A DNA stretch of 64,000 bases. Source: Candidatus Hodarchaeota archaeon (lineage in GTDB: Archaea; Asgardarchaeota; Lokiarchaeia; Sigyniarchaeales; SOKP01). Of this stretch, positions 37,076-61,743 are shown one piece after another; within the stretch, counting starts at the first letter, position 1, and each line of letters begins with the position of its first letter. The notes under the pieces were generated by a model, which searched no databases, had not been told where the DNA came from, and saw only the letters and a list, made by a program, of their open reading frames with translations. The translations under genes were made by a program, and so were the position numbers. The stretch spans positions 1 through 64,000 of the forward strand of contig JBHLKM010000008.1 in the NCBI GenBank assembly GCA_048886685.1, in the 5' to 3' direction.

Positions 37076-38305
37076 TTAAGAAAGAGATTCTAAAATTAAC
37101 TCAACTAAATCAGTCATCTTAAGATTTGAATTTAGTTCTTGTATAGCATCAGAAAGATTTCGATAACAGAAGGGACAAGTGCTAACTAGATAATCTGCAC
37201 CTGTTTCTTCAGCTTCTTTAACCCTATTTTTAGCCAAATCCATAGATAATTCTGGAAATCCTTTTCTCACTCCACCTCCAGCTCCACAGCACATTGCCCC
37301 TATACGATTCGTTTTCATCTCTGTTAAATTTGAAATTTTCTTTAATATATCTCTTGGTTCTTCATATAAACCCATATGTCTTCCGATATGACAAGGATCA
37401 TGGTATGTGGTTTTTATATCCAAGTTTTTTAGCTTTACATCTTTTTCTGCTACAATTTTGTTTAAAAATTCCACTGAATGGAGTATCTTGATGCCTTCTA
37501 ATCTATCTCCATAATCCTTTTTAAATGTTCTATAACAACCAGCACAACTTGTGACAATTGTTTTTATTCCTCTATCGTTAAAAAACCTAACATTCTCTTC
37601 TACAACTTTTTCAAATGACTTTCTATCTCCAGTTCGCATAGCTACACTCCCGCAACAAACTTCATGTTCTCCAAAAACTGAAAAATCTATACCCAATTTA
37701 TCAAATATTTTTGCGGTAGCTATTGCAACACGATGGATTAGAGGTGTTAAAGCCGAGGTACATCCAACGAAGTAAAGGGATTCAGCATCTTCTTTGCTTG
37801 CATCTTTAACTTTAAAATCTAGTTCTTTAGTCCAGTCAATTTTGTCTTTATTATCTCGTTCATATGGATTCAATAATTCAAACATTGCTTTATTCATAGG
37901 AACTTGAGACTCAATTGGATATCCAGCTTCAACTAAGTCAGCTCTTAGGGCTTCATATACATTGACATGGTCCATAATTGTCTTCATGGGAAAATCAAAA
38001 TTCTCATTTTGAGAGTTAAAACATAATTCTTCACAGAGTCCGCAAAGTGTACACTGAAATATTAGATTGCTTATTTCTTGGCTTAGTTTTAAATCTCCCC
38101 TAAAAAGTCCTTTTAGAATAACATTTTTACCTCGAGGGTTAAATGGTTCAAATTTTGGCACAATATCTGATTTATACACAGGACAACTATAAAAAATTCC
38201 TTTTGATGGCCAATTAGCAACTCGACATTGTCCACATTGAGCACATGCTATGGCTGCATCTTCAAACACGCTTAAATTCTTTAAACCTTTTTTTATTTCA
38301 GTCAT
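37076..38305 (-). CDS. (Fe-S)-binding CCG-domain protein (GlcF/HdrD-like)
   Basis: CAQCGQC, CTLCGLCEELC, VCCG, CAGC, HDPCH, CCGAGGG, CPFC. Confidence 0.9.
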   Translation of the reverse strand: MTEIKKGLKNLSVFEDAAIACAQCGQCRVANWPSKGIFYSCPVYKSDIVPKFEPFNPRGKNVILKGLFRGDLKLSQEISNLIFQCTLCGLCEELCFNSQNENFDFPMKTIMDHVNVYEALRADLVEAGYPIESQVPMNKAMFELLNPYERDNKDKIDWTKELDFKVKDASKEDAESLYFVGCTSALTPLIHRVAIATAKIFDKLGIDFSVFGEHEVCCGSVAMRTGDRKSFEKVVEENVRFFNDRGIKTIVTSCAGCYRTFKKDYGDRLEGIKILHSVEFLNKIVAEKDVKLKNLDIKTTYHDPCHIGRHMGLYEEPRDILKKISNLTEMKTNRIGAMCCGAGGGVRKGFPELSMDLAKNRVKEAEETGADYLVSTCPFCYRNLSDAIQELNSNLKMTDLVELILESLS

Positions 38306-38317
38306 TTTTAACACCTT

Positions 38318-39829
38318 TTAATAGTTTTCAGTTAGATAAAATTTGCCAGGAGATAGAATTCCGTTAGGGTCAAGCGCTTTCTTTATGGTAATCATGAAGT
38401 TGTAATATTCTTCTGATAATGCTCCTGAATCAACTAAGCTTCTTCCTATAATTTCACCCATCCAGTAGTGTACTGCCCCTAACTCTTTTATCTGAGTAAT
38501 TAAAAAGTCTTTCCATAATTCTATTTGAGCCTCTCTGTGTTCTACACTGCTTAAAACACCAGCCCCACCCGCAACATCAATATATGTTGGATTAACTCCA
38601 AATGCTACGAATTCCGCACCGCCGCCTATCCCTCCCATTTCTGCCATTTTTGCAAAATTACGTTTAATCCAATTATCATACATTATTCTGTACTCTGGTA
38701 ATTGATACGTAGGGCATTTCACACATCCCCCCATACCAAATAAATATCCTCCCGCCCAACTGTGATTAGACCACTGCCACCTTCCATCTTCTTCATAAAA
38801 CCACTTTCCAATATTACCTTCTTCCACAGTAGGACCTAATTTCTCAAATTCTGCATCTTGAGCAATTTTTTCGATTCTTTCCACATTATAGTCTAATTGT
38901 TTTTGAGTATCTGCGACCGTAGTATAAAATAAAGTCGCACCTCTAACTTTTGCATCAATTAAAGGCTTGGCAATTTTTTGTCCTTTTAGTGAGTTTACAG
39001 TAGATTGAGTATAATAAAAGAAATCGTGCAACGGTAATTTATCATGTTGCCATTTGATCATTACCTTCGAAGCTCGTTCTGGTGGAGTCATTTCCTTGGT
39101 TCTTTTAATTACATATGTTGCATATCCTGCATATTCTGGAAGAGAATATATATTCAAAGAGGCTTTTGTCTTTATTCCATGTATTCCAACATCACCTAAA
39201 AATATGCCAGAATAGTCAGCTCCTAACCCAAACCTAGTAAAAGGTTTATCACGAAACGTATTAGCCTTTGCCCCTGTATAAATTATCTCTCCTGTAGGTA
39301 GGACAACCTCTAATCCTACACATTGTTCAGTTACGGCTCCATACATAGCAGCACCCCCACCCCCTACTGTATTATTTGAAAGTCCACCCCCAATAGTTGC
39401 AGAGAATCCAGAAGCAGGACCAGTCGATCCTGTATAATATCCGATTCCTACATTGCTTAATTGCTCACATAATTCACTCCAAGAGATCCCAACTTCAACA
39501 GTGACAATTCGGTTTTCTTCATCAATATCTAATATTTTATTCATACGAGTAACATCTAGAACAATTCCCCCATCGCCAATTGGTTTTGCACCCCCTGTTA
39601 AATCTGCACCATTCCCTCTGGGGATTATCTTTGTCCCGTATTTATTTGCAACTTTTAGGATTTCAGAAATTTCCTCTACAGTTATTGGTTTTACAACAAT
39701 ATCTGGGATGCCTTGTAATGTAAAATCACAATTCATTGAATAAGAATAACAAACTGGTTCAGAATCAGAAACGTATTTAGTACCTACGATGTTTTCTATT
39801 TCTTCATACACATTTTGAGTTTCATTCAT
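38318..39829 (-). CDS. FAD-binding oxidoreductase (VAO/PCMH/GlcD family)
   Basis: PRGNGADLTGG, RMNKIL, ATIGG, GLEVVLPTG, DPNGILSPGK; operon with the Fe-S subunit. Confidence 0.9.
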   Translation of the reverse strand: MNETQNVYEEIENIVGTKYVSDSEPVCYSYSMNCDFTLQGIPDIVVKPITVEEISEILKVANKYGTKIIPRGNGADLTGGAKPIGDGGIVLDVTRMNKILDIDEENRIVTVEVGISWSELCEQLSNVGIGYYTGSTGPASGFSATIGGGLSNNTVGGGGAAMYGAVTEQCVGLEVVLPTGEIIYTGAKANTFRDKPFTRFGLGADYSGIFLGDVGIHGIKTKASLNIYSLPEYAGYATYVIKRTKEMTPPERASKVMIKWQHDKLPLHDFFYYTQSTVNSLKGQKIAKPLIDAKVRGATLFYTTVADTQKQLDYNVERIEKIAQDAEFEKLGPTVEEGNIGKWFYEEDGRWQWSNHSWAGGYLFGMGGCVKCPTYQLPEYRIMYDNWIKRNFAKMAEMGGIGGGAEFVAFGVNPTYIDVAGGAGVLSSVEHREAQIELWKDFLITQIKELGAVHYWMGEIIGRSLVDSGALSEEYYNFMITIKKALDPNGILSPGKFYLTENY

Positions 39830-41915: not shown

Positions 41916-42903
41916 TTGATGAAATTAGACCACTCCGAACCAATAACCATAATCTACGATACAGATATGGATTTGGATTGTGATGATGCAAGAGCTCTTG
42001 CAATGCTTCATGCCTTAATGGATTTTAAGGAAGCTAAGATTTTAGGAGTTATAGTTGACGTTCCATTTGAAGCTTCGGCGAAATGTGTTATGATAATTAA
42101 TAATTATTACTACTGTCCTGAAATTCAAGTTAGATTATTAGAAGATAGAGACTATAAGATGGGGGAAAAAATATCAATTATACCGTGATACTAAAAAGCA
42201 ACTTGCTAAATATGTAAACTATTACGCTGGTAAGATTGTAGAACATTACTCATCAGATATTACAAAAAGTCAAAAGATATGGGAATTCGTTACTTTATAT
42301 CGACATTTATTATCAAACTCCGAAAATCATTCTGTTGTTATTATCGCGGTAGGATTGCTTATTGCATTAAAAGCTCTTTTAGATTCACCTCCAGATAATC
42401 TCTCTCCTCTAAATGGGACAGGTCTTGTGAAACTAAAAGTAAAAAAACTTGTTACTATGGGGATCGGGAGGTTTCCAAGTACTCAAGCAGAATTTAATTG
42501 GTTAATGGACTGGGAAAGTGCGCGTTTTGTTATCATTCATTGGCCTACTGAACTTGTAGTACAATCTAATGGTACTGAGTTCTTTATTGGAAATAAATTG
42601 TCCATTAAAACACCAGAATCAAACCCAGTTCGCAAAATTTATGAAACATGCCTAAAAGATCCTAAAAGAGGGAATTCTAGTTGGGATCTCATAGCAACTT
42701 TCTATGGCGTTAGAGGGTGTGATGTGTACCTCGAAGAAAAAAGAGATTACCGTATAACTCTTGAATCTGAACGCGGGAAAAATCATTGGGTTTCAGATAA
42801 AAATAATGAATTTAATCACTTATTTTTAACTTAAGTACCTCCAATAATAAAATTTAAGGAAGTTCTAGAAGATCTCCTAACTAAACAACCAAATAAAATA
42901 TAA
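41916..42903 (+). pseudogene. Nucleoside hydrolase-like pseudogene
   Basis: DTDMDLDCDDA motif; frameshift in the G5A6 run at ~42161-42171 leads into the ORF 42355 frame (AEFN, SWD); internal TAA at 42832; frame closes at 42903. Confidence 0.8.
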
Positions 42904-46643: not shown

Positions 46644-48179
46644 TTAATCTTCTACGAGATGTTCTGTATAATCATGGTCGTAAGAATATAAATGGAACTT
46701 ATTTGGGCTCAAGAGGTAGTTTGGATCAACCGCCTTTTTCATGTCTTTAAAGAATTGCATAAATTCGGGAGTATAGGCCCCCGCTTCTACAATTGACTGA
46801 CTAATAGATTCTCCTAACCAGTAATGCGCGCCACCATACCGAACTTGATGCCGGATCTTCTTATGCCAAATGTTCATAGTCGCTTCACGGTTTTCATCAG
46901 TGTTGTCACCTCCGAGACCTCCTACAATCACACAGTTTCCATTGGGCAAAAACATTAAGAATGCGGCAAAAACGGGGTATGGGGGATTCCCCGGTGGAAA
47001 TTCTTTCGCATTGCTTATATTGAATTGTACTCCTTTTTGAACACTTTCATTTAACCTGGAAATCGCAACCTTGTGACATGTTGTACATGAGATTTTAGGT
47101 GGGGCAGTTGAGATATATTTTTGAAAGAAGTTGAACTCTTCTTTTAGTGTGAACTTCCAGTCTTTTGACAATTTCATGTCTAAATCAATCTCCTGCCATT
47201 CAAATGGTCGACACACATCATCTTGTAACATAATCTCATTAGTTTTTTCAAGATAGATATCTAAAATTCGTTGATCAGTTGCTTCTAATGTCACTGAAAA
47301 TACTGGTCCGGTTATTTTTGGTCTTTTACTGGGTTTATTTACAACTTGAGTTGATAATAGTTGAAACAATATGGATGGCCATACCATTAAATCATTTAAA
47401 CCATCCCCCACTTCTTTGCGTAGTTTATGACCAATCTTAAATACCTGATTATAGTCATCCTTTAAAAGCATATAATATCTCCGTACTTTAAATGGAGGAT
47501 CTGGGAATAATCTTAGGAATGCTTTGCATTTAATTCCCATAGTGCCAACATCTCCCATAAATAATCCTGTAAAATCTGGGGCAACACCATATCGGCAGAA
47601 AGGAGTAGCATATTGGTTTGCTGCTGACCCTGTTCTTACAATTGTTCCTTGGGGATTAGGAAGTACTACTTCAACTCCAAGACATATGTCTGGTACTATA
47701 CCATATTTCGTAGAACTAAATCCTACTGTAGCATTTGAGAGTCCTCCACCGATTGTCGCTGAATAACCGCTTCCAGGTCCAAGAATTCCTGTAGTCATCC
47801 CTTTTTTCTGTAATTCTGAGAGCATAGACCCCCATGTGATCCCACATCCAACGATGCAGTAATAATCATCCACGTTAATTTCATGGATTTGGTTCATTCG
47901 GGTAAGGTCGATAAGAATACCTCCTTCAGTAGTTGATCCCCCAACAAGATCTGCACCTCCACCTCGAGGAACCATGGGAATTTTGTATTTATTAGCAATT
48001 TTTACGATTTCAGATACTTCTTCCGTTGTTTCTGGCTTTACAATTATATCAGCCCAGCGGTCAGGAAAAGCAGGATCGACACCTCTCGAGTATGCTGCTT
48101 TCATAAAATCCGCATCGGATATGAAGTCTGATCCAATGACATCTTCTATTTCTTTATACGCATTTTTAACCTTGGACAT
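46644..48179 (-). CDS. FAD-binding oxidoreductase (VAO/GlcD family), paralog A1
   Basis: PRGGGADLVGG, ATIGGG, GVEVVLPN, HYWLGE, DPNYLLSPNK. Confidence 0.9.
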   Translation of the reverse strand: MSKVKNAYKEIEDVIGSDFISDADFMKAAYSRGVDPAFPDRWADIIVKPETTEEVSEIVKIANKYKIPMVPRGGGADLVGGSTTEGGILIDLTRMNQIHEINVDDYYCIVGCGITWGSMLSELQKKGMTTGILGPGSGYSATIGGGLSNATVGFSSTKYGIVPDICLGVEVVLPNPQGTIVRTGSAANQYATPFCRYGVAPDFTGLFMGDVGTMGIKCKAFLRLFPDPPFKVRRYYMLLKDDYNQVFKIGHKLRKEVGDGLNDLMVWPSILFQLLSTQVVNKPSKRPKITGPVFSVTLEATDQRILDIYLEKTNEIMLQDDVCRPFEWQEIDLDMKLSKDWKFTLKEEFNFFQKYISTAPPKISCTTCHKVAISRLNESVQKGVQFNISNAKEFPPGNPPYPVFAAFLMFLPNGNCVIVGGLGGDNTDENREATMNIWHKKIRHQVRYGGAHYWLGESISQSIVEAGAYTPEFMQFFKDMKKAVDPNYLLSPNKFHLYSYDHDYTEHLVED

Positions 48180-48395
48180 TTATTTCACCAATTTTTAAAA
48201 ATATAATAATTAAAAGATAGACCTAATATCCTAATAAACGTTACTTACATAATCGGTAACTTATTAGAATAAGTTTGAAAATATTTGTAAGATTTAAGAA
48301 CTATATATATATTAATTCAAATAAAAGATGAATATAATGAGAATTATAATTAAGATTTTTCGCTGTTTTATTCATGAACCTTTGAGGGGGGGATC

Positions 48396-49478
48396 ATGCC
48401 TGCAGTAAGACCGTCGGATGGTCCGGTTGCGGTGACAGGTGCCTCGGGTTATGTCGGTTCCCATGTGGTGACCGCGTTGATGAGGCATGGGTATACTATA
48501 CATGCTTGTGTGAGAGATCCGAACAACCCTGATAAGACTGACCATTTATTGGCACTTAATGAAGGCGATTACCCTGGTCATTTGGAACTATTTACTGCCA
48601 ATCTACTCGATGAGGGTAGTTATGATACAGCATTTAAAGATTGTAGTGCCGTGCTTCATGTTGGCACACCTATGGGTTATGGCGGCGATAATAATCCCCG
48701 ACAGATTTACAATGGTGCAATAAATGGCACCAAGAACGTCCTCAATTCAGTTAAGAAAGTGGGTACGGTTAAGCGGTTTATTTATACGAGCTCTTTTTCA
48801 GCAATCCATCACCCAATGAAGTCTGGATATATCTTTACTGAGAAAGATTGGGCTTCAGACAATCGTGAGAACGATCCGACCTGGAGTAAAGACAGGATCG
48901 ACCTAGATGGGGAGATGGCTTATTCGATGGCCAAAGTTGAGACCGAGAAAATGGCCTACAAATTTGCTGAGGATGATGGTCGTTTCGATGTTATTTCTGT
49001 CTGTCCCATTGCCGTGTTGGGGCCACTTCTCTCCCGGGTGCATGAGCGACCGGGTTCTTGGCAATGGGAGCTTGGTCGTATGCTAGAGGGCAAAACTGTC
49101 CAACGTGCTTGGAATTGGTTGTGGAATATCGTTGATGTACGCGATGTTGGCGAATCACAGACGCTAATGATCGAGAGTAACGTCTGTAAGAATGGATGGC
49201 GCTATATCTTGAGTGCTACAGACGAATCAGGAGAACTTAACGCGTTACAACTTCAAACGCACCTGCAAAAGTTATTCCCACAAATCGATGTGGGCGGTCC
49301 TCCTGATGAAATCAATGTGATCATCGAAAAATATGGCAATGTCTACCAATCGCCACTCGCCCATTGTGATCGAGCCCGAGAGGAACTTGGTCTCAAGACT
49401 CATGCTATCGAGGATACATTGCGAGAGACTGGGCAAACTATGATCGATTTTGGTCTGGTGAAGCCAGCTTTGAAGTAG
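48396..49478 (+). CDS. NAD-dependent epimerase/dehydratase, dihydroflavonol/cinnamoyl-CoA reductase-like extended SDR; GC-rich
   Basis: TGASGYVG, YTSS, YSMAK, VDVRDV; visibly higher GC than its flanks. Confidence 0.88.
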   Translation: MPAVRPSDGPVAVTGASGYVGSHVVTALMRHGYTIHACVRDPNNPDKTDHLLALNEGDYPGHLELFTANLLDEGSYDTAFKDCSAVLHVGTPMGYGGDNNPRQIYNGAINGTKNVLNSVKKVGTVKRFIYTSSFSAIHHPMKSGYIFTEKDWASDNRENDPTWSKDRIDLDGEMAYSMAKVETEKMAYKFAEDDGRFDVISVCPIAVLGPLLSRVHERPGSWQWELGRMLEGKTVQRAWNWLWNIVDVRDVGESQTLMIESNVCKNGWRYILSATDESGELNALQLQTHLQKLFPQIDVGGPPDEINVIIEKYGNVYQSPLAHCDRAREELGLKTHAIEDTLRETGQTMIDFGLVKPALK

Positions 49479-49539
49479 ATTTGGAAGTTAGGTAGCTTTA
49501 TGTATAAATTTGGTAAAAATTAAATAAATTCCTTATTTT

Positions 49540-50202
49540 TTGAATGTAATGACAGATTTTAACGAAGAATTTAAAGATACATTAAAATCTACATTTTTTT
49601 TAGATTGGAAACATCCATCAGTCTTACAAAAAGCTAAAGAGCTGACAGATGGAATTGAAGATGATATTGGGAAGGCAATTAAACTTTTTTATTTTGTACG
49701 AGACGGGATAAGATATTCAGTTAAAGATTCTCCTTTGTCTTTTAACAAGGAAGAATGGAAACCGAGTTTAACTCTGGAAAAAGGATATGGATTTTGCATC
49801 CCTAAGGCGATTTTATTGGCATCATTAGCCAGAGCAGTTGGAATTCCTTCAAGACTTCATTTTGTTGATATTGTTAACCATATGACTAGTGAGAGGCTCA
49901 AAAAAGATATGGGGAGCAACCTTTTCATATTTCATGGTTTCGTTGAACTTTTCTTAAATGGGAAATGGGTAGAAGCGAATTGTGCTTTTGATAAAGAGCT
50001 GTGTATAAGAAAAAATTTCCCATGGGTAGATTTTGATGGTGTAAAAGACGGACTTTTTGCAAGTACAACTGAAGACGGAGAACCATTTGTGGAGTATATC
50101 AAGGATCGAGGTGTTTACAATGATGCACCTCACCAAGAGATTATGGAAACGTGGGCTATGGAATATCCCAACCGTTATAAAAAGAGTGAGACACCTATTT
50201 AA
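49540..50202 (+). CDS. Transglutaminase-like cysteine protease-fold protein
   Basis: FYFVRDGIRY, GFCIPKAILLASLARAVGIPSRL, FHGF, GKWV. Confidence 0.85.
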   Translation: MNVMTDFNEEFKDTLKSTFFLDWKHPSVLQKAKELTDGIEDDIGKAIKLFYFVRDGIRYSVKDSPLSFNKEEWKPSLTLEKGYGFCIPKAILLASLARAVGIPSRLHFVDIVNHMTSERLKKDMGSNLFIFHGFVELFLNGKWVEANCAFDKELCIRKNFPWVDFDGVKDGLFASTTEDGEPFVEYIKDRGVYNDAPHQEIMETWAMEYPNRYKKSETPI

Positions 50203-50292
50203 TTCATATCTGAAAGCTTTTGGAAAAAAACTCTAAGAAGTAAATTTTATTAGTAGTTCAAATCTAATTCTTTATAACTCATATTAATAAAA

Positions 50293-51840
50293 ATGGCTAT
50301 TACAATGTCAAAAGTTAAAAGTGCATATAAAGAAATTGAAAATGTCATTGGAGAAGATTTTATAACTGATAAAGATTTTATGAAAGCGGCATATTCTCGG
50401 AACGTAGATCCGGCGTTTCCCGATCGATGGGCTGACATGATCGTGCGTCCTGAAACCACCGAAGAAGTGTCTGAGATTGTAAAAATTGCAAATAAATATA
50501 AAATACATATGGTTCCACGTGGGGGTGGAGCTGACCTTGTTGGGGGTTCAACTACTGAAGGTGGAATCCTTATTGATCTTACTCGAATGAATAAGATTTT
50601 GGAGATTAACGAAGATGATTACTATTACGTAGTTGAATGTGGAGTTACTTGGGGAGCATTATTATCAGAATTACATCCAAGAGGTCTAACTTCTGGAGTC
50701 ACAGGACCGGGAAGTGGATTCTCTGCTACGATTGGTGGGGGTCTATCTAATAGCACAGCTGGAGGAGGGTCAACAAAATATGGATTAGTTCCAGACGTAT
50801 GCTTAGGCGTGGAAGTGGTACTCCCTAATCCTCAAGGAACAATTATACGTACAGGATCAGCAGCTAACCAGTATGCTACACCGTTCTGTAGGTATGGCGT
50901 TGCTCCAGATTTCACAGGGCTCTTTATGGGAGATGTCGGCACCATGGGAATAAAGACGAAAGCATTTATGAGGCTTTTTCCAGATCCTCCATTTAAGGCA
51001 TCTCGGACTTATGTGTTTAACAAAAATGATTATAATAAAGTATTTGAGAAGGCTCATAAACTACGCAAAGAAGTGGGAGATGGATTACTTGGTTTAAGTG
51101 TTTTACCATATGAAATAACAATGATAATGGCAGCTCGAATGGCAGCAGAAGGAACTAAAAGGCCACGAATTAGAGGGCCTCTATTGGCGGTGTCATTGGA
51201 AGCTACAGATCAACGAATACTAGATGTATATATTGAGAAAGTTGATGATATAATGATAAAAGATGAATCTACTCGCCCTATTTCACTTGCGGAAATTGAT
51301 CCATCTAGAGCTCGACCTGATACATGGCAATATAACTTAAAAGCAAGTTTTAACTATTTTCACAATTTAATTTCTGTAGCGCCTCCGAAAGTTACCTGTA
51401 CAACATGCCACAAAGTACCAATGTCTGGGTTACCTGAATTATCAAAAAAAGCCCAACAATTTGATATTGACCATAATAAGACTTATCCTCCTGGTACTAT
51501 GGCTATTTGGGCCGGTGTTGTCGCTTTTATGCCTAATGGGAATTGTATATTTGTTGGTGGTTTTAACGCTGATAATGTTAAAGAAAAACGACAGCTCTCT
51601 ATGGATCTCTGGCATAAAAAAATAAGGTACCAAGTTCGATATGGAGGTGTTCACTACTGGCTTGGTGAATCTATCTCACAATCGATTACGGAATCAGGGG
51701 CTTTTACAGATAATTTTGAGCAATTTTTTAGAGATATGAAGAAGGCGGTTGACCCAAATTACTTGCTTTCTCCTAACAAGTTCCATTTGCATACTTATGA
51801 TTCAAAATTCGCAGATTATTATGTACCTGATAAAGAATAA
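50293..51840 (+). CDS. FAD-binding oxidoreductase (VAO/GlcD family), paralog A2
   Basis: Same motifs as 46644..48179; homologous start MSKVK at 50305. Confidence 0.9.
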   Translation: MAITMSKVKSAYKEIENVIGEDFITDKDFMKAAYSRNVDPAFPDRWADMIVRPETTEEVSEIVKIANKYKIHMVPRGGGADLVGGSTTEGGILIDLTRMNKILEINEDDYYYVVECGVTWGALLSELHPRGLTSGVTGPGSGFSATIGGGLSNSTAGGGSTKYGLVPDVCLGVEVVLPNPQGTIIRTGSAANQYATPFCRYGVAPDFTGLFMGDVGTMGIKTKAFMRLFPDPPFKASRTYVFNKNDYNKVFEKAHKLRKEVGDGLLGLSVLPYEITMIMAARMAAEGTKRPRIRGPLLAVSLEATDQRILDVYIEKVDDIMIKDESTRPISLAEIDPSRARPDTWQYNLKASFNYFHNLISVAPPKVTCTTCHKVPMSGLPELSKKAQQFDIDHNKTYPPGTMAIWAGVVAFMPNGNCIFVGGFNADNVKEKRQLSMDLWHKKIRYQVRYGGVHYWLGESISQSITESGAFTDNFEQFFRDMKKAVDPNYLLSPNKFHLHTYDSKFADYYVPDKE

Positions 51841-51946
51841 ATCTTTTTTTTCAGTTTTTTTTATTATATATTTTGAAGTAAATCAGTTATCAACTCAATT
51901 TGCTCTAATTCATTTAATGAAAGGATAGCAAATTATAGAAAGAGAT

Positions 51947-51992
51947 TTAAGAATAATTGTTAAATTTGATTCAACATTAATGGTAAATCAAT
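51947..51992 (+). promoter_or_regulatory. Duplicated promoter element, copy 1
   Basis: 38/46 identical to 53601-53646; contains the imperfect palindrome TGTTAAAT-N3-ATTCAACA after TTTAAGAA. Confidence 0.6.
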
Positions 51993-52020
51993 TAATACTC
52001 AAAATGATGAATAGATAAAA

Positions 52021-53502
52021 ATGTCAAAAGTTAAAGAAGCATATAGTGAGATTGAGAGTGTTGTTGGGGAAGATTATGTATCCGATAAAGATTTCATGAA
52101 AGCAGCCTACTCTAGAAACGTCGATCCAGCGTTTCCTGACCGTTGGGCAGATATTATAGTAAGACCAGAAACTACTGAAGAAGTATCTGAGATTGTCAAA
52201 ATTGCGAATAAATACAAATTGCGTATGGTTCCTAGAGGTGGGGGTGCTGATCTGGTCGGGGGAAGTGTTACCGAAGAGGGGATACTAATTGATATGACAC
52301 GTATGAATAAGCTTGAAGAGTTTAATAAAGATGATTACTATATTGTAGTTGGAGTTGGAATTACGTGGGGAGATTTACTTTCTCAATTGGTACCTCAGGG
52401 GTATACAACAGGGATTACTGGTCCTGGGAGTGGATACTCTGCTACTATTGGGGGAGGTCTGTCGAATAGCACAGCGGGAGGAGGGTCAACTAAATACGGT
52501 CTCGTGCCTGACATCTGCCTTGGAGTTGAGGTGGTGCTTCCCAATCCAGAAGGAACGATAATTAGAACAGGTTCAGCAGCCAACAAATATGCAAAACCTT
52601 TTTGTAGGTATGGGGTTTCACCTGATTTTACAGGTCTGTTCATGGGTGACGTGGGCACCATGGGAATTAAATGCAAAGCATATTTACGAATATTCCGCGA
52701 ACACCCCTATAAAGCTAATCGTGTTTTTCTCCTCAAAGAATATGATTATAATAAAGTTTATTTGTTAGCTAAAAAAATTAGGTATGAAATTCCTGATGGT
52801 CTGCTTGGTTTAAGTGCATTTCCACCATTTTATTTTGCCCAATTTAAAATCCCAAACGCTAAAGGTCCAGGAATTTCAGTTACGCTAGAAGCTATGGAAA
52901 TGGAGATACTTAATATGTGCATTAAAAAACTTGAAGATATCATGAAGGAAGACACAATAATGATACCTGCCGCCCCTGGCGCTAACGCTGAACCTAATTT
53001 GAAAGCGGCTTTTCACTACTTTCAACCTTTGATTTCCCCGGTCCCTGGAAGAATTGCTATGGCAACATGTCATAAAATTCCAATCTCAACTTTAGGTAAA
53101 GTTCATGATGAGAATGTCGAGTGGAATAATAGGCATGCAAAAGATATACCAGGTTCAGTTATGCCAGGAGTATTTGAGGCAACACAGTACTTCTTACCCA
53201 ACGGAAATATGGTAGTCTTAGGAGGGGTAGCAGGAGAAAATAAGGATGAAATGCGGGAGAGGAATATGAAGCTATGGCATTCAAAAATTCGAACCCAAGT
53301 TCGATATGGTGGCGCTCATTATTGGCTAGGAGAATCTATTTCACAATCCCTTACCGAATCTGGAGCGTTTACACCGGAATATGAACAATTCTTCAGGGAT
53401 ATGAAGAAAACAGTTGATCCTAATTACCTTCTTTCGCCAAATAAGTTTCATCTGCATACTTACGATTCAAAGTTCGCAGATTATTATGTAGAACCGGATT
53501 AA
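52021..53502 (+). CDS. FAD-binding oxidoreductase (VAO/GlcD family), paralog B1
   Basis: Same FAD-domain motifs; MATCHKIP; HYWLGE. Confidence 0.9.
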   Translation: MSKVKEAYSEIESVVGEDYVSDKDFMKAAYSRNVDPAFPDRWADIIVRPETTEEVSEIVKIANKYKLRMVPRGGGADLVGGSVTEEGILIDMTRMNKLEEFNKDDYYIVVGVGITWGDLLSQLVPQGYTTGITGPGSGYSATIGGGLSNSTAGGGSTKYGLVPDICLGVEVVLPNPEGTIIRTGSAANKYAKPFCRYGVSPDFTGLFMGDVGTMGIKCKAYLRIFREHPYKANRVFLLKEYDYNKVYLLAKKIRYEIPDGLLGLSAFPPFYFAQFKIPNAKGPGISVTLEAMEMEILNMCIKKLEDIMKEDTIMIPAAPGANAEPNLKAAFHYFQPLISPVPGRIAMATCHKIPISTLGKVHDENVEWNNRHAKDIPGSVMPGVFEATQYFLPNGNMVVLGGVAGENKDEMRERNMKLWHSKIRTQVRYGGAHYWLGESISQSLTESGAFTPEYEQFFRDMKKTVDPNYLLSPNKFHLHTYDSKFADYYVEPD

Positions 53503-53600
53503 AGATAAGATAAGACAAATTAAATTCTTTATTTTTCTTTTATTTTTTATTTTCAGCTAAATTTCTTTTTAAGGAAATCATAATGTAAATGGAATTTGAA

Positions 53601-53646
53601 TTAAGAATAACTATTAAATTAAATTCAACATTAAAAAGAAATCAAT
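53601..53646 (+). promoter_or_regulatory. Duplicated promoter element, copy 2
   Basis: TTAAGAATAACTATTAAATTAAATTCAACATTAAAAAGAAATCAAT, 38/46 identical to copy 1. Confidence 0.6.
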
Positions 53647-53663
53647 ACACATTAACAAAAAAA

Positions 53664-55205
53664 GTGATAAAAATTTCGAAAGTTAAAGAAGCATATAGTG
53701 AGATTGAAAATGTTGTTGGAGAAGACTATATAACTGATAAAGACTTTATGAAAGCAGCTTATTCAAGGAATGTTGATCCGGCATTCCCCGATAGATGGGC
53801 AGATATGATTGTACGGCCCGAATCTACTGAAGAAGTCTCTGAAATAGTCAAGATTGCCAATAAATATAAAATTCGAATGGTACCACGAGGTGGTGGTGCT
53901 GATCTCGTTGGAGGGTCCGTAACTGAAGGTGGGATTCTAATAGATCTTACAAGAATGAATCAAGTTATAGAATTCAATAAAGATGATTACTATATCGTAG
54001 TTGGATGTGGGATCACTTGGGGTGCCTTAATATCACACTTACACCCTACAGGTTATACTACTGGTATCATTGGTCCAGGAAGTGGGTTTTCTGCGACAAT
54101 CGGAGGTGGACTCTCTAATAGCACTGCAGGTGGGGGATCTACTAAGTACGGCCTTGTTCCTGATATTTGTTTAGGTGTTGAGGTAGTTCTTCCAAATCCT
54201 GAAGGGACTATTATAAGAACTGGATCAGCGGCAAATAAATATGCAAAACCTTTCTGTCGTTATGGGGTTTCCCCTGATTTCACTGGATTATTCATGGGAG
54301 ATGTAGGTACCATGGGAATTAAGTGTAAAGCATTCCTGCGATTGTTTCCTGATCCTCCCTACAAGCAGGCACGTATGTATGTCCTTAATAAAGAAGATTA
54401 TAACAAAGTATTTGAATTAACACATAAAATCCGGCATGAAATAAATGAGGGATTGAGAGATCTTTCTGTATTACCTGCAATTTTAATCCAAATGGCAGCT
54501 ACTCAATACCATCAACGAACTGGTGAAAGGATTAAAGCGAGGGGACCTCTAATGAATATAACAATAGAAACCATGGAGGAAAGTACATTAGAACTTAAAT
54601 TAGAGAAACTTGCAAAGATTATGGAGAATGATGCAGTTCAAGTACCTGGTTCATTGATAAATCCAGAATTTGATGATGAACCCAAATTTGGATATGATTT
54701 AGAAGGGACTTTTCATTTTTTTCAAGCATCTATTTCGCCAACACCATCTCAAATGGGAATGGCTACATGTCATAAAATTCCAATCTCACATATGGGTGAG
54801 GTATATAATAAGATCATTGATTTCAGTAAGAAACATGCTAGTGAGATGCAAGGTGCGATCTATCCTGGAATTTTTGCATCTATGCTTTATTTTCTCCCAA
54901 ATGGTAATTATGTAGTTTTAGGCCAAGCTACTGGGAAAAATGTAGAAGAAGAACGTGAAAAGAATATGGAAAGATGGCATAAAAAGATACGACATCAAGT
55001 TCGTTATGGAGGTGCTCACTACTGGCTAGGAGAGTCAATATCACAATCACTTACCGAGGCTGGAGCGTATACTCCAGAATATGAGCAATTCTTCAGAGAT
55101 ATGAAGAAAACCGTTGATCCCAACTATCTTTTAAGCCCAAATAAGTTCCATCTTCACACTTACGATTCGAAATTTAAGGATTATTATGTAGAAGAGGAGG
55201 ATTAG
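53664..55205 (+). CDS. FAD-binding oxidoreductase (VAO/GlcD family), paralog B2
   Basis: Homology to paralogs starts at ATT 53673 (I-SKVKEAY vs M-SKVKEAY); in-frame GTG at 53664; the ORF-track ATG 53589 lies upstream of the duplicated promoter. Confidence 0.88.
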   Translation: MIKISKVKEAYSEIENVVGEDYITDKDFMKAAYSRNVDPAFPDRWADMIVRPESTEEVSEIVKIANKYKIRMVPRGGGADLVGGSVTEGGILIDLTRMNQVIEFNKDDYYIVVGCGITWGALISHLHPTGYTTGIIGPGSGFSATIGGGLSNSTAGGGSTKYGLVPDICLGVEVVLPNPEGTIIRTGSAANKYAKPFCRYGVSPDFTGLFMGDVGTMGIKCKAFLRLFPDPPYKQARMYVLNKEDYNKVFELTHKIRHEINEGLRDLSVLPAILIQMAATQYHQRTGERIKARGPLMNITIETMEESTLELKLEKLAKIMENDAVQVPGSLINPEFDDEPKFGYDLEGTFHFFQASISPTPSQMGMATCHKIPISHMGEVYNKIIDFSKKHASEMQGAIYPGIFASMLYFLPNGNYVVLGQATGKNVEEEREKNMERWHKKIRHQVRYGGAHYWLGESISQSLTEAGAYTPEYEQFFRDMKKTVDPNYLLSPNKFHLHTYDSKFKDYYVEEED

Positions 55206-55216
55206 GTGAAATAAGA

Positions 55217-56422
55217 ATGACAGAGTTTGATCCAAAAGAAAAGTTTAAGCATTTGGCAAAAATTGGTCCAAATGTATTGCAATGTATTGCGTGCGGTGAT
55301 TGTAGAGAACAAACTGATTATACTGGCAATCCACCAAGATGGGGGGTATGCGTTGCCAAAGACCATACTTCTGGATTTGAACCCTATTTTGCAAGGGGGA
55401 AAATGCAGATTATTCGGTCTTTATGGCAGGGTAAATTAGAATTAAGCAAAGAAATGGCAGAAGTGATTTATCAATGTCCTACATGTAACACTTGTGCAGA
55501 AGCATGTGCGTATGATATGGATAATGTTGCATTGTATGAAGCACTAAGAGCCGAATTGGTAGATGCTGGTTGTGGTCTTGAAGTTCATATACCAATGAAT
55601 AAAGCCATGGTTGAACTGTTAAATCCTTATGAAAGAGATAATAAGCTTAAGGCCGAGTGGTTAAAAAAGCTAGATTTCAAGGTGAAGGATGCGAATACGG
55701 AACAAGCAGAAATTTTATATTTTGTTGGATGTACTGCAGCTTTAACTCCGGATATTGAGAATGTAGCAATTAATACTGCAAATATTCTTAAAAAACTAAA
55801 CATAGATTTTTCAGTATTTGGAGAACAAGAAGTTTGTTGTGGGAGCGTTGGAATGCGAACAGGAGACCTAAAAGCTTTTAATTCTGTAGCAACGAAGAAT
55901 TATGAAATGTTTAAGAAAAGTGGAGTGAAAACTATAATAACAAGCTGTGCAGGTTGTTATAGAACTTTAAAGAAAGATTATGCTGATCATATGGAAGATT
56001 TAGGAATTACTGTTTACCATACCATTGAATTCTTAAACAAATATATAAAAGAGAATAATATACAATTAAAGAATTTAGGTTTAAATACCACATATCATGA
56101 TCCATGTCATACAGGACGTCATATGGGTCTTTTCGAAGAACCACGAGAGATTTTGGGGAAGATTTCGAATTTAACTGAAATGAAGACTATAAAACAGAGC
56201 GCAAAGTGCTGCGGTGCTGGAGGAGGAGTTAAAAAGGGATTCCCAGAATTATCATTAGAGATCGCGAAAAGCAGAATAAAGGAAGCTGAGGAGACAGGAG
56301 CAGAATATTTAGTAAGTATGTGTCCTTTCTGTTTTAGGAACTTAGCAGATGCAATAGATGCAAGTGGTTCCAACCTAAAAATGGTTGATTTAACAGATTT
56401 AATAAATCAAGCTTTAGATTAA
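55217..56422 (+). CDS. (Fe-S)-binding CCG-domain protein (GlcF/HdrD-like)
   Basis: CIACGDC, CPTCNTCAEAC, VCCG, CAGC, HDPCH, CCGAGGG, CPFC; GGTGA RBS; 11 bp after paralog B2. Confidence 0.9.
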   Translation: MTEFDPKEKFKHLAKIGPNVLQCIACGDCREQTDYTGNPPRWGVCVAKDHTSGFEPYFARGKMQIIRSLWQGKLELSKEMAEVIYQCPTCNTCAEACAYDMDNVALYEALRAELVDAGCGLEVHIPMNKAMVELLNPYERDNKLKAEWLKKLDFKVKDANTEQAEILYFVGCTAALTPDIENVAINTANILKKLNIDFSVFGEQEVCCGSVGMRTGDLKAFNSVATKNYEMFKKSGVKTIITSCAGCYRTLKKDYADHMEDLGITVYHTIEFLNKYIKENNIQLKNLGLNTTYHDPCHTGRHMGLFEEPREILGKISNLTEMKTIKQSAKCCGAGGGVKKGFPELSLEIAKSRIKEAEETGAEYLVSMCPFCFRNLADAIDASGSNLKMVDLTDLINQALD

Positions 56423-60641: not shown

Positions 60642-60983
60642 TTACATCCATGAAATTATTTTGGAGTTGTTGACAAGAATATCCACGAGATCATCATAAT
60701 CAATTCCTTTTATTTTGTCTCGCAAATTGTTTGGATTTATACTTCTTGCTTTAAGATCTGGGATTAAAGCATAAAAATTTATCGGCAAATTTAACAACGC
60801 AACTAACCCGGAAGGAATTATGCTTTTATTAGATGTGCCAATGACTCCATCATGAATTAATACGATGCTAATTTTACTTCCAATACTAATTTGTTCACTT
60901 ATTATTTTATTGAGATTTACTAGTAAAGAATTTTTTCTTGTACTAAATCCATATAAATAGACAAGAGAATTTGCTTCAATCAT
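60642..60983 (-). CDS. dsrH: DsrH/TusB-like sulfur relay protein
   Basis: VLIHDGVIG, YALIPDLKARSI, IDYDDLVDIL, ISW. Confidence 0.75.
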   Translation of the reverse strand: MIEANSLVYLYGFSTRKNSLLVNLNKIISEQISIGSKISIVLIHDGVIGTSNKSIIPSGLVALLNLPINFYALIPDLKARSINPNNLRDKIKGIDYDDLVDILVNNSKIISWM

Positions 60984-61001
60984 GATTTTTTCCCTCAAAT
61001 T

Positions 61002-61370
61002 CTAATAATGGAAACATACTTCTGCTTTTTCTAATATTTGAGAAATTTCTTTTATACCAATAATTTTTAAATTTTCAATGGAAATAAGATCTGAATGGTT
61101 TAAACCCGCAATTTCAAGAGCCTCATCGTAGACGAAAATTTCTAAACCTGAAAGCTCAACCAACCTCATTATGTTGGTAAATGGTTCAATATTCAATGTT
61201 TCAGGATTTAAGTTTTTGCTAAGAAAATAGATGGCATCCCCCATAAAAATAACCTTACAATCTTCTATATCTCCAATTGCTAAAATTCCCGTAGCCATAC
61301 GGATGGATTCTACTACAGAATTTTTCCCGAAAGGAGAATCCTCACATATAATAACTATTGACTCAACCAT
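61002..61370 (-). CDS. dsrF: DsrF/TusC-like sulfur relay protein
   Basis: SPFG...ESIRMA, VIFMGDAIYFL; middle gene of a three-gene operon. Confidence 0.75.
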   Translation of the reverse strand: MVESIVIICEDSPFGKNSVVESIRMATGILAIGDIEDCKVIFMGDAIYFLSKNLNPETLNIEPFTNIMRLVELSGLEIFVYDEALEIAGLNHSDLISIENLKIIGIKEISQILEKAEVCFHY

Positions 61371-61374
61371 GATA

Positions 61375-61743
61375 TCACCCTCCAGGACCAAAGAAAATAA
61401 CTCTATCAGAACGGACAATTAAATCAGAAAGTCCTCCTAATCCCTCTTGACATGCTCCTTCAATAAATTCTTCAGATTTCATTCCGGAAAAACTAATCCA
61501 GGTACTACACGCTGCTAATTTAGTTTTATGCGTTTTATGAAAGTTTACAAGGCGTTCTGGTAAATTTCGTAAAGAAACATCAGTAATTTCTCTCAGTTTA
61601 ATGCTATGTACACCGCTTCCATAAAAAAAGATTCCTAAGATTTCATGTCCTTTATTGATTATTGCCTCACCTAAATTAATCAATGTGTCTAAAGCTTCAT
61701 ATTTGTAGGGCTCTGCGCATACTACAAAAGTGAATGATACCAT
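61375..61743 (-). CDS. dsrE: DsrE/TusD-like sulfur relay protein
   Basis: EPY, GHEILGIFFYGSGV, AACSTW (sulfur-carrying Cys position), GLGGLSDLIVRSDRVIFF. Confidence 0.8.
   Translation of the reverse strand: MVSFTFVVCAEPYKYEALDTLINLGEAIINKGHEILGIFFYGSGVHSIKLREITDVSLRNLPERLVNFHKTHKTKLAACSTWISFSGMKSEEFIEGACQEGLGGLSDLIVRSDRVIFFGPGG

What the first reader, a model, noticed from the sequence alone, without database searches (positions are those of the whole stretch)
46644..56422. Array of four FAD oxidoreductases with constant FAD domain and tail, a variable substrate cap, and one shared Fe-S subunit
Seen: the four paralogs are nearly identical over the first ~235 aa and the last ~65 aa (QVRYGGAHYWLGESISQS...DPNYLLSPNKFHL) but diverge strongly, with indels, over the ~200 aa between; only one CCG Fe-S gene follows them. 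Established: in VAO-fold enzymes this middle region is the cap that sets substrate specificity. D-lactate/glycolate dehydrogenases end in a metal-binding EHGxG and AGPS in HHHGVG, whereas all copies here have HYW(L/M)GE plus a TCHK/KCPT motif. Inference: an uncharacterised dehydrogenase clade used as interchangeable catalytic heads on a common electron-output subunit.
Basis: partly seen in the sequence, partly recalled or inferred. Interest (0 to 1): 0.8.

Follow-up and report, generated by a model that had tools for sequence, protein, structure and literature searches.

The report
Flavoenzyme heads sharing one iron-sulfur subunit
A Lokiarchaeon-type (Asgard) archaeon carries four old copies of an uncharacterised flavin dehydrogenase that share one docking surface and catalytic core but differ in their substrate pockets, and they most likely take turns passing electrons to a single iron-sulfur partner, a modular version of a known enzyme type.

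Summary
Largely confirmed, with corrections. Four VAO/PCMH-fold FAD enzymes (A, B1, B2, B3) are 79-88% identical in residues 1-235, 84-95% in the tail and 36-48% in the cap. A lies on the opposite strand, two genes away. A fifth paralog, E (38318-39829), has its own CCG gene. The host is Promethearchaeota. The constant-ends/variable-middle shape is expected, because N-terminus plus tail form the FAD domain.

Sharing is supported indirectly. Of 32 related genomes with 2-5 heads and a cognate CCG gene, 30 have exactly one. A model docks orphan A on the CCG protein (0.92, best control 0.00) through a FAD-domain helix nearly identical in A-B3 but different in E. Each cap is kept in orthologs under purifying selection (dN/dS 0.06-0.13), with copy-specific pocket residues around an invariant Cys/Lys/His/Tyr/Trp/Glu core.

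The D-lactate-dehydrogenase metal site, the VAO phenol triad and the AGPS His motif are absent. The substrate is unknown; neighbours point to CoA-linked breakdown of hydrophobic acids or alcohols. Verdict: a new variant of HdrD/GlcD-type flavo-Fe-S dehydrogenases. First readers of this scan noted the same pattern in other genomes.

The parts
46644..48179 (-). Head A, VAO/PCMH-fold FAD oxidoreductase, 511 aa; divergent orphan with no adjacent CCG gene
   Evidence: 13 ortholog sequences (N-domain 86-94%, cap 84-91% identical); docks on CCG in model
48396..49478 (+). NAD(P)-dependent epimerase/3-beta-HSD-like gene; not seen in the orthologous arrays, probably a later insertion
   Evidence: Pfam PF01370/PF01073; locus maps; higher GC in this stretch
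49540..50202 (+). Transglutaminase-like gene between A and B1; kept in several orthologous arrays
   Evidence: PF01841; 7 loci
50305..51840 (+). Head B1, 511 aa from the ATG at 50305 (ORF open from 50293); folded model
51841..51875 (+). Oligo-T tract after B1, archaeal terminator-like; similar T-rich tracts follow A, B1, B2 and CCG in orthologous loci, but not B3
   Evidence: family D6; function inferred
52021..53502 (+). Head B2, 493 aa; sister of B3, with the longest cap stem branch and two cap deletions
53513..53562 (+). T-rich tract after B2, terminator-like
53673..55205 (+). Head B3, about 510 aa; probable ATT start behind a GTGA box (ORF finder start 53589); 11 nt from the CCG gene
55217..56422 (+). 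HdrD/GlcF-like Fe-S protein, 401 aa: eight Cys for two cubane clusters (C23, C26, C29, C45, C87, C90, C93, C97) and ten Cys in two CCG domains; no transmembrane helix
56488..60575 (+). Two tandem OYE/BaiCD-like flavoenzymes; an OYE lies near the head genes in 16 homologous loci
38318..39829 (-). Fifth paralog E (HYWMGE, CVKCPT), about 35% identical to A-B3, with a different docking helix
37076..38314 (-). E's own CCG Fe-S protein; 31-35% identical to the array's CCG at modelled interface positions versus 61-63% elsewhere

Best explanation
A soluble, modular flavo-iron-sulfur dehydrogenase. Each head binds FAD (probably non-covalently) between the discontinuous FAD domain (residues 1-235 plus tail) and the cap, and oxidises a C-H(OH) or aldehyde-level carbon by hydride transfer, using a metal-free core common to all copies (C368, K370, F352, H452, Y453, W454, E457; A numbering). 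Each head docks, probably one at a time, through helix 23-34 and the flavin-side loop 137-140 on the N-terminal dicluster domain of the single CCG protein. Electrons go FAD -> cubanes -> non-cubane clusters -> an unknown acceptor, possibly a disulfide. The copies are old duplicates retained because their pockets take different members of one substrate class, most likely hydrophobic acids or alcohols entering a CoA-dependent pathway. B3 is co-transcribed with the CCG gene; A, B1 and B2 look separately terminated, so heads could be regulated individually. Shown: sequence pattern, copy counts, purifying selection, missing family motifs. Modelled: docking. Inferred: chemistry, substrate class, regulation, exchange of heads.
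For: Counts in 152 genomes of the order: 62 hold core heads (122 matches), 58 hold the cognate CCG (61 matches), 56 hold both, 88 neither; of 32 with 2-5 heads and a CCG, 30 have one CCG; 23 have one head and one CCG, so one head is a complete unit. The four-copy arrangement recurs in G003, G086, G092, G094 and G095 (five copies). Complex model of A + CCG + FAD + 2 [4Fe-4S]: score 0.92, best of 3 controls 0.00; the mark was reached by 58 of 80 solved complexes and 2 of 110 mismatched pairs (counts hold only roughly here); runs agree in at least 86% of contacts; partner pLDDT at least 92; 32 of 49 interface residues lie in the FAD domain, and loop 139-140 touches residues 27-28 beside cluster ligands C26/C29. 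Helix 23-34 is 83-100% identical among A-B3 but 17-25% to E; modelled interface positions are less conserved than background between the two systems on both sides (head 0.33 vs 0.49, permutation p 0.04; CCG 0.31 vs 0.61). Caps are 77-87% identical within ortholog groups at dS about 0.9-1.5, dN/dS 0.06-0.13; cap/N branch ratio is 4-16 on duplication stems vs 1.3-3.2 within groups. Of 14 inferred pocket positions, 4 are invariant and 7 constant-but-different between copies. Neighbours: ADC-like proteins (25 loci), OYE (16), CoA ligases (15), SCP-x thiolases (11).
Against: No experiment. Only A was modelled, with family alignments, and close cousins of a true partner can pass, so the model shows family-level docking, not that each copy binds. 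Interface conservation among the four is no higher than the rest of the FAD domain (0.81 vs 0.83) and is similar among paralogs that each have their own CCG gene (0.75-0.84). About a third of the modelled interface lies in the cap and is only 50% conserved. The genome has more than 25 other CCG-domain proteins that could serve as partners. Enrichment of constant-but-different sites at pocket positions is not significant (p 0.14), and pocket positions were mapped by sequence alignment, not superposition. Stem ratios may be inflated by past gene conversion in the FAD domain and by rate saturation. Genomes are related and not independent; many are incomplete.
Confidence: 0.62

Rival explanations
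1. Same shared partner, but the heads are isoenzymes for one substrate, differing in kinetics, regulation or dosage; cap divergence is largely drift in the faster-evolving domain.
For: The cap evolves about 3x faster than FAD domain plus tail across the clade (tree length 16.5 vs 5.2). Other paralog sets show the same direction. The catalytic core is invariant. Pocket enrichment is not significant. Some relatives keep only A and B3 (G023, G097).
Against: Four copies persist across species whose synonymous sites are near saturation, each cap under purifying selection, with copy-specific fixed changes such as 348 E/S/A/T, 404 F/W/F/F and 408 L/I/Q/L. B2's cap stem is 0.75-0.99 substitutions per site.
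Confidence: 0.2
2. The heads form an obligate hetero-oligomer with the Fe-S protein, as in GlcDEF or the FAD/Fe-S/FAD benzene-linked flavoprotein, with distinct catalytic and structural roles.
For: GlcDEF and ORM2 proteins 24-26 combine two flavoproteins with one Fe-S protein (PMC13101534; PMC13416013). VAO-family flavoproteins commonly dimerise (PMC5646868).
Against: 23 genomes have one head and one CCG gene. Copy number runs from 1 to 5. All heads keep the full catalytic motif and the same docking helix, whereas the two benzene-complex flavoproteins differ in domain content (PMC13416013). Optional heterodimers are not excluded.
Confidence: 0.08
3. Only B3 works with the CCG protein; A, B1 and B2 use other acceptors (another CCG protein, ETF, ferredoxin).
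For: Only B3 is operonic with the CCG gene. The genome has three EtfAB pairs and many CCG proteins. LctD of Acetobacterium uses EtfAB (PDB 7qh2).
Against: A models on the CCG protein at 0.92 vs 0.00. The docking helix is retained in all copies. A- and B1-like heads are the ones directly upstream of the CCG gene in many other loci.
Confidence: 0.1

Closest known systems
HdrD/GlcD pairs of archaea and GlcDEF/GlcF-type flavo-Fe-S dehydrogenases (PMC10667645, PMC6783470, PMC13101534)
   Same: FAD_binding_4 flavoprotein next to a dicluster+CCG Fe-S protein; best NCBIfam hit is glcD (111-128 bits); at least ten such pairs occur in this genome.
   Different: Far below the glcD cut-off (568 bits); no 2-hydroxy-acid metal site; several catalytically complete heads per Fe-S gene rather than one, or GlcD plus GlcE.
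D-lactate/D-2-hydroxyacid dehydrogenases (mouse LDHD 8jdc, LctD 7qh2, D2HGDH 6lpn)
   Same: Best structural match (Z 32.2, rmsd 3.1 A, 438 aligned, 22% identity); no N-terminal covalent His.
   Different: The positions of R347, H398, H405 and E442-H443, all essential in mLDHD (PMC10589216), hold E/S/A/T, F, V/I and HYWLGE.
4-phenol oxidases: VAO, EUGO, PCMH, vanillyl-alcohol dehydrogenase
   Same: Nearly as close in fold (Z about 30); Tyr453 sits in the GxxxY(R/W/K) loop position of the phenolate Tyr; PCMH also has a separate electron-accepting subunit.
   Different: No Tyr108 or Asp170 equivalent (ADLVGG and Ser137 in the alignment); Trp in place of Arg504; partner is a CCG protein, not cytochrome c.
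Shared electron-output modules in general (ETF serving many acyl-CoA dehydrogenases; from own knowledge, and bioRxiv 10.64898/2026.08.18.745454 for transient ETF binding)
   Same: Many substrate-specific flavoenzymes feed one redox partner.
   Different: Here the shared partner is a HdrD-like subunit with a large modelled interface (about 130 contacts), encoded with its paralogous heads.

Membership tests
VAO/PCMH superfamily | PCMH-type FAD-binding domain plus cap domain, whole-fold match | tested here: met
   PF01565 E about 1e-38; model pLDDT 84, TM about 0.75 and Z 28-32 to LDHD/EUGO/VAO/PCMH over residues 1-506
D-2-hydroxyacid dehydrogenases (LDHD/GlcD/D2HGDH) | HxGDGNxH metal ligands in the cap | tested here: not met
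   All four read FxPNGNxV/I at the matching place; no His at 410 or 417 in 99 clade members. Mapping is by sequence, not superposition.
D-2-hydroxyacid dehydrogenases (LDHD/GlcD/D2HGDH) | C-terminal EHGxG (metal Glu, catalytic His) | tested here: not met
   HYWLGE in 99/99; the same search finds EHGxG in three other FAD proteins of the genome
D-2-hydroxyacid dehydrogenases (LDHD/GlcD/D2HGDH) | Carboxylate-binding Arg (mLDHD R347) | tested here: inconclusive
   The helix has no conserved Arg (position 348 is A/S/E/T/P), but the register is uncertain by a few residues
GlcD equivalog (TIGR00387) | Score above curated cut-off 567.9 | tested here: not met
   111-128 bits
4-phenol oxidases (VAO/EUGO/PCMH) | Tyr108-Tyr503-Arg504 phenolate triad (PMC10404669) | tested here: not met
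   The NFAYGG Tyr aligns to ADLVGG; the C-terminal loop is HYW, not YR. C-terminal register is from motif comparison.
4-phenol oxidases (VAO/EUGO/PCMH) | Asp170-type catalytic residue | tested here: not met
   The position mutated in 8s7t (residue 151, taken from own knowledge as the Asp170 equivalent) aligns to invariant Ser137
4-phenol oxidases (VAO/EUGO/PCMH) | Covalent FAD via a cap His or Tyr | tested here: inconclusive
   No residue-level superposition was available; invariant C368/H369 lie on the same strand region and a covalent link cannot be excluded
Alkyl-DHAP synthase (AGPS) | C-terminal HHHGVG catalytic His motif | tested here: not met
   Absent in A-B3; present (HHHGIG) in another gene of this genome, C18:13758-15236
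HdrD/GlcF-like NCB Fe-S proteins (55217-56422) | Two cubane-cluster Cys sets plus two CCG domains with ten Cys | tested here: met
   PF13183 (E 9e-6, just under cut-off) + 2x PF02754; 18 ligand Cys, 17 invariant and C26 at least 90% conserved in 42 homologs
HdrD (true CoM-S-S-CoB reductase) | Heterodisulfide reductase activity; HdrE membrane partner | not testable with these tools
   Best NCBIfam TfrB 228 bits vs cut-off 385; such domains can be pure electron conduits (bioRxiv 10.64898/2026.08.18.745454)
GlcDEF-type obligate heterotrimer | Two unlike flavoproteins required per Fe-S subunit | tested here: inconclusive
   23 genomes have one head and one CCG gene, which argues against; oligomeric state untested

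The most novel reading that the evidence does not exclude
Beyond protein-level sharing, the array is a recombining substrate repertoire: crossovers in the invariant stretch just before the cap (codons about 165-225), helped by the inverted orientation of A, join one copy's promoter and FAD domain to another copy's cap and so switch which pocket is expressed. Not excluded, because relatives show exact paralog tracts there (190 nt in G102, 59 nt in G017) and one contig of the G017 species (L139) is a clean B1-5'/A-3' chimera. Against: single contigs that may be assembly chimeras, no reciprocal product found, no recombinase seen in the array or its flanks (38-64 kb), N and cap trees largely congruent, and no such tract in this window's genome.
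Probability: 0.12. Interest if true: 0.72.

Novelty: new variant of a known kind. Interest (0 to 1): 0.5.

Why it matters
FAD + HdrD-like gene pairs are common in Asgard and other anaerobic archaea and are usually read as lactate or glycolate dehydrogenases. This clade lacks those catalytic residues, so such annotations, and metabolic models built on them, would be wrong for it. If the heads are interchangeable, the array is a natural series of four pockets on one chemistry and one electron outlet. That makes it a tractable way to find what complex organic compounds these sediment archaea oxidise and where CCG subunits send electrons, and it adds a new Cys/Lys/His/Tyr active site to a biocatalytically used flavoprotein family.

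Tried and rejected
Recent gene conversion as the cause of the constant domains in this genome: rejected; synonymous sites are saturated in all regions, the longest exact shared tract is 29 nt, and within-locus pS equals between-locus pS. General cap swapping between copies: not supported; FAD-domain and cap trees are largely congruent, and 42 of 43 typed metagenome heads have matching N-domain and cap types. Tail as docking surface: not in the modelled interface. Interface more conserved than background among the four: not found (p 0.72 FAD domain, 0.13 cap). RNA runs: none was listed, which is no evidence on expression. Sigma-70 promoter and hairpin terminator scan: at chance level and unsuited to archaea. 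Full 130-sequence IQ-TREE run timed out; reduced sets were used. ESM Atlas gave only generic FAD-oxidase_C clusters. Nine successful literature searches found no paper on this clade; the library is incomplete. A crude genome-wide test of ATH starts gave only weak enrichment (ATT 7.5% vs 5.0%) and is inconclusive. The chimeric L139 protein is on record from one contig only.
Full report
Observation. The region holds four FAD_binding_4 flavoproteins and one dicluster+CCG iron-sulfur gene. A (46644-48179) is on the minus strand. An epimerase-like and a transglutaminase-like gene follow, then B1, B2, B3 and the CCG gene on the plus strand, with B3 and CCG 11 nt apart. Pairwise identity is 79-88% over residues 1-235, 36-48% over 236-440 and 84-95% over 441-497. 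Synonymous sites are saturated everywhere and the longest shared DNA run is 29 nt, so the copies are old and protein conservation in this genome reflects selection. B3 most likely begins at ATT 53673: that codon is homologous to the ATG of the other copies, lies behind a GTGA box, and orthologs often have in-frame stops just upstream.

Host and spread. Close homologs are almost all from Promethearchaeota and other Asgard MAGs. The genome has 18 FAD proteins of this fold, at least ten directly paired with a CCG gene. At 50% clustering the core clade is essentially one cluster within a large uncharacterised group ending in GxxxY(W/R/K) instead of EHG.

Is the pattern special? Partly not. In VAO the cap is residues 270-500 (PMC5646868), so the N-terminus and tail together make the FAD domain, and a conserved-variable-conserved profile is expected. 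The cap tree is three times longer than the FAD-domain tree. Other paralog sets in this genome show N 79-87% and cap 59-64%. A-B3 are more extreme, with caps at 36-48% for the same N-domain identity. Each copy forms its own ortholog clade. Caps are 77-87% identical within clades with dN/dS 0.06-0.13, and the cap/N branch ratio is 4-16 on duplication stems against 1.3-3.2 within clades. This suggests change after duplication followed by constraint, though past conversion of FAD domains could inflate the ratios.

One partner for many heads. In 152 genomes of the order, 62 hold core heads and 58 the cognate CCG protein; 56 hold both and 88 neither. Of 32 genomes with two to five heads and a CCG, 30 have a single cognate CCG gene, and 23 genomes have one of each. 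The A/B1/B2/B3/CCG arrangement recurs in at least five other genomes. These genomes are related and partly incomplete, so this is description, not a statistical test. A complex model of orphan A with the CCG protein, FAD and two clusters scored 0.92 against a best control of 0.00. The mark was reached by 58 of 80 solved complexes and 2 of 110 mismatched pairs (counts hold only roughly here); runs agreed in at least 86% of contacts and partner pLDDT was at least 92. No solved complex of this type was found by sequence, but family alignments were used and close cousins can pass, so this supports family-level docking only. The interface uses head residues 18-34, 115-125 and 137-140, some cap residues (343-363, 426-428) and none of the tail, against the CCG protein's N-terminal dicluster domain; loop 139-140 lies next to cluster ligands C26/C29, a plausible electron path. 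Helix 23-34 is 83-100% identical among A-B3 and 17-25% identical to E, and both sides of the modelled interface diverge more than background between the two systems, as expected if each set is tuned to its own partner. Among the four, however, the interface is no more conserved than the rest of the FAD domain, so it does not prove sharing by itself. T-rich tracts follow A, B1, B2 and CCG but not B3, here and in orthologous loci, suggesting separate transcription units (inference).

Chemistry. The B1 model (pLDDT 84) matches mouse LDHD (Z 32) and the 4-phenol oxidases (Z 30) almost equally, at 20-22% identity. The mLDHD residues needed for activity, R347, H398, H405, E442 and H443 (PMC10589216), have no counterparts by sequence mapping. 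The VAO triad Tyr108/Tyr503/Arg504 and Asp170 (PMC10404669) are reduced to one Tyr, with Trp for Arg and Ser for Asp. The AGPS His motif is absent. Instead F352, T367, C368, H369, K370, H452, Y453, W454 and E457 are invariant in 99 clade members. Of 14 positions inferred to line the pocket, 4 are invariant and 7 are fixed within but different between copies (348 E/S/A/T, 366 T/T/A/A, 404 F/W/F/F, 406 S/G/A/S, 408 L/I/Q/L, 417, 419); the enrichment over the rest of the cap is not significant (p 0.14). The simplest reading is one metal-free hydride-transfer chemistry on several related substrates. The CCG protein keeps all 18 cluster cysteines and has no membrane helix. Such domains can reduce disulfides or merely relay electrons (bioRxiv 10.64898/2026.08.18.745454), so the acceptor is open.

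Substrate class. The window is rich in CoA ligases, SCP-x thiolases, SCP2, crotonases, a CoA transferase, SDRs and OYE/BaiCD-like enzymes. Near homologous heads the recurrent genes are acetoacetate-decarboxylase-like proteins with a GxPKK Lys motif (25 loci), OYE (16), CoA ligases (15), thiolases (11), DsrE-like (11) and glycyl-radical enzymes (6). Loki-3 archaea are implicated in using lignin- and humic-derived acids through beta-oxidation (PMC8027215). I therefore favour oxidation of hydroxyl- or aldehyde-level carbons on hydrophobic (aryl-alkyl, steroid or terpenoid) acids or alcohols, at roughly 40%; the ADC link would fit making 3-oxo acids for decarboxylation. This is inference.

Recombination in relatives. 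Contig L139 has a head that matches G017's B1 (93-100% nt) up to about codon 200 and G017's A (92-100%) after it, followed by a CoA ligase gene like the one after A, as an A/B1 inversion would give. It is one contig and may be an assembly chimera. A second chimera sits at a contig end in G017. Trees are otherwise congruent. Occasional ectopic recombination is likely; programmed switching is not shown.

Comparison and verdict. It works like an HdrD/GlcD or GlcDEF-type flavo-Fe-S dehydrogenase (PMC10667645, PMC6783470, PMC13101534) and belongs to the VAO/PCMH superfamily, but fails the membership tests for D-2-hydroxyacid dehydrogenases, 4-phenol oxidases and AGPS. I found no paper on the clade in the held library. 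What is new is the active-site constellation and the evidence for a lineage-wide many-heads/one-CCG organisation. New variant of a known kind; interest 0.5; confidence in shared partner with specialised pockets about 0.6.

Noticed in passing
window 53673-53675 and about 70 homolog genes: The codon homologous to Met1 is often ATT, ATC or ATA, 4-7 nt behind a GGTG/GTGA box, several times with an in-frame stop just upstream: probable near-cognate AUH initiation in these archaea. A crude genome-wide test was inconclusive.
   Followed up: partly
L139:56-1591 (Ga0114922_10039966); L105:17488-19020 (G017): Chimeric heads: B1 5' + A 3' with one crossover near codon 200; B3 5' + A-type remainder at a contig end. 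Real recombinants or assembly chimeras.
   Followed up: partly
L120:16655-18187 and L120:3802-5331 (G102); L118 (G092): Exact 190-nt and 98-nt tracts shared by oppositely oriented paralogs inside the FAD domain, suggesting recent gene conversion.
   Followed up: partly
genome contig C2:398261-399745: E-like head with no adjacent CCG gene and an E-type docking surface (88% identical at interface positions): a possible second case of sharing, with CCG 37076-38314.
   Followed up: partly
window 60642-61743 (minus strand): DsrE/DsrF/DsrH-like sulfur-relay trio; homologs lie within 4 kb of head genes in 11 loci. Could be an acceptor route for the CCG subunit or just synteny.
   Followed up: no
window 41916-42834: Gene broken into pieces by stops/frameshifts; an intact 331-aa homolog is in L033; nucleoside-hydrolase-like by its DTDxxxDxDD start (own knowledge).
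   Followed up: partly
window 17216-44585: Long catabolic neighbourhood: four CoA ligases, two SCP-x thiolases, two crotonases, CoA transferase III, SCP2, SDRs, Zn-ADH, OYE and ferredoxin-nitroreductase.
   Followed up: partly
genome contigs C6, C9, C10, C12, C13, C14, C18: Expanded repertoire of FAD + CCG pairs with different C-terminal motifs (YKPP, YR, EHG, HHHG) and six glycyl-radical enzymes; one pair has an AGPS-like HHHGIG motif.
   Followed up: no
L115 (G095): Five-copy array with an extra B2/B3-related head carrying yet another cap: the repertoire is still growing in this genus.
   Followed up: no
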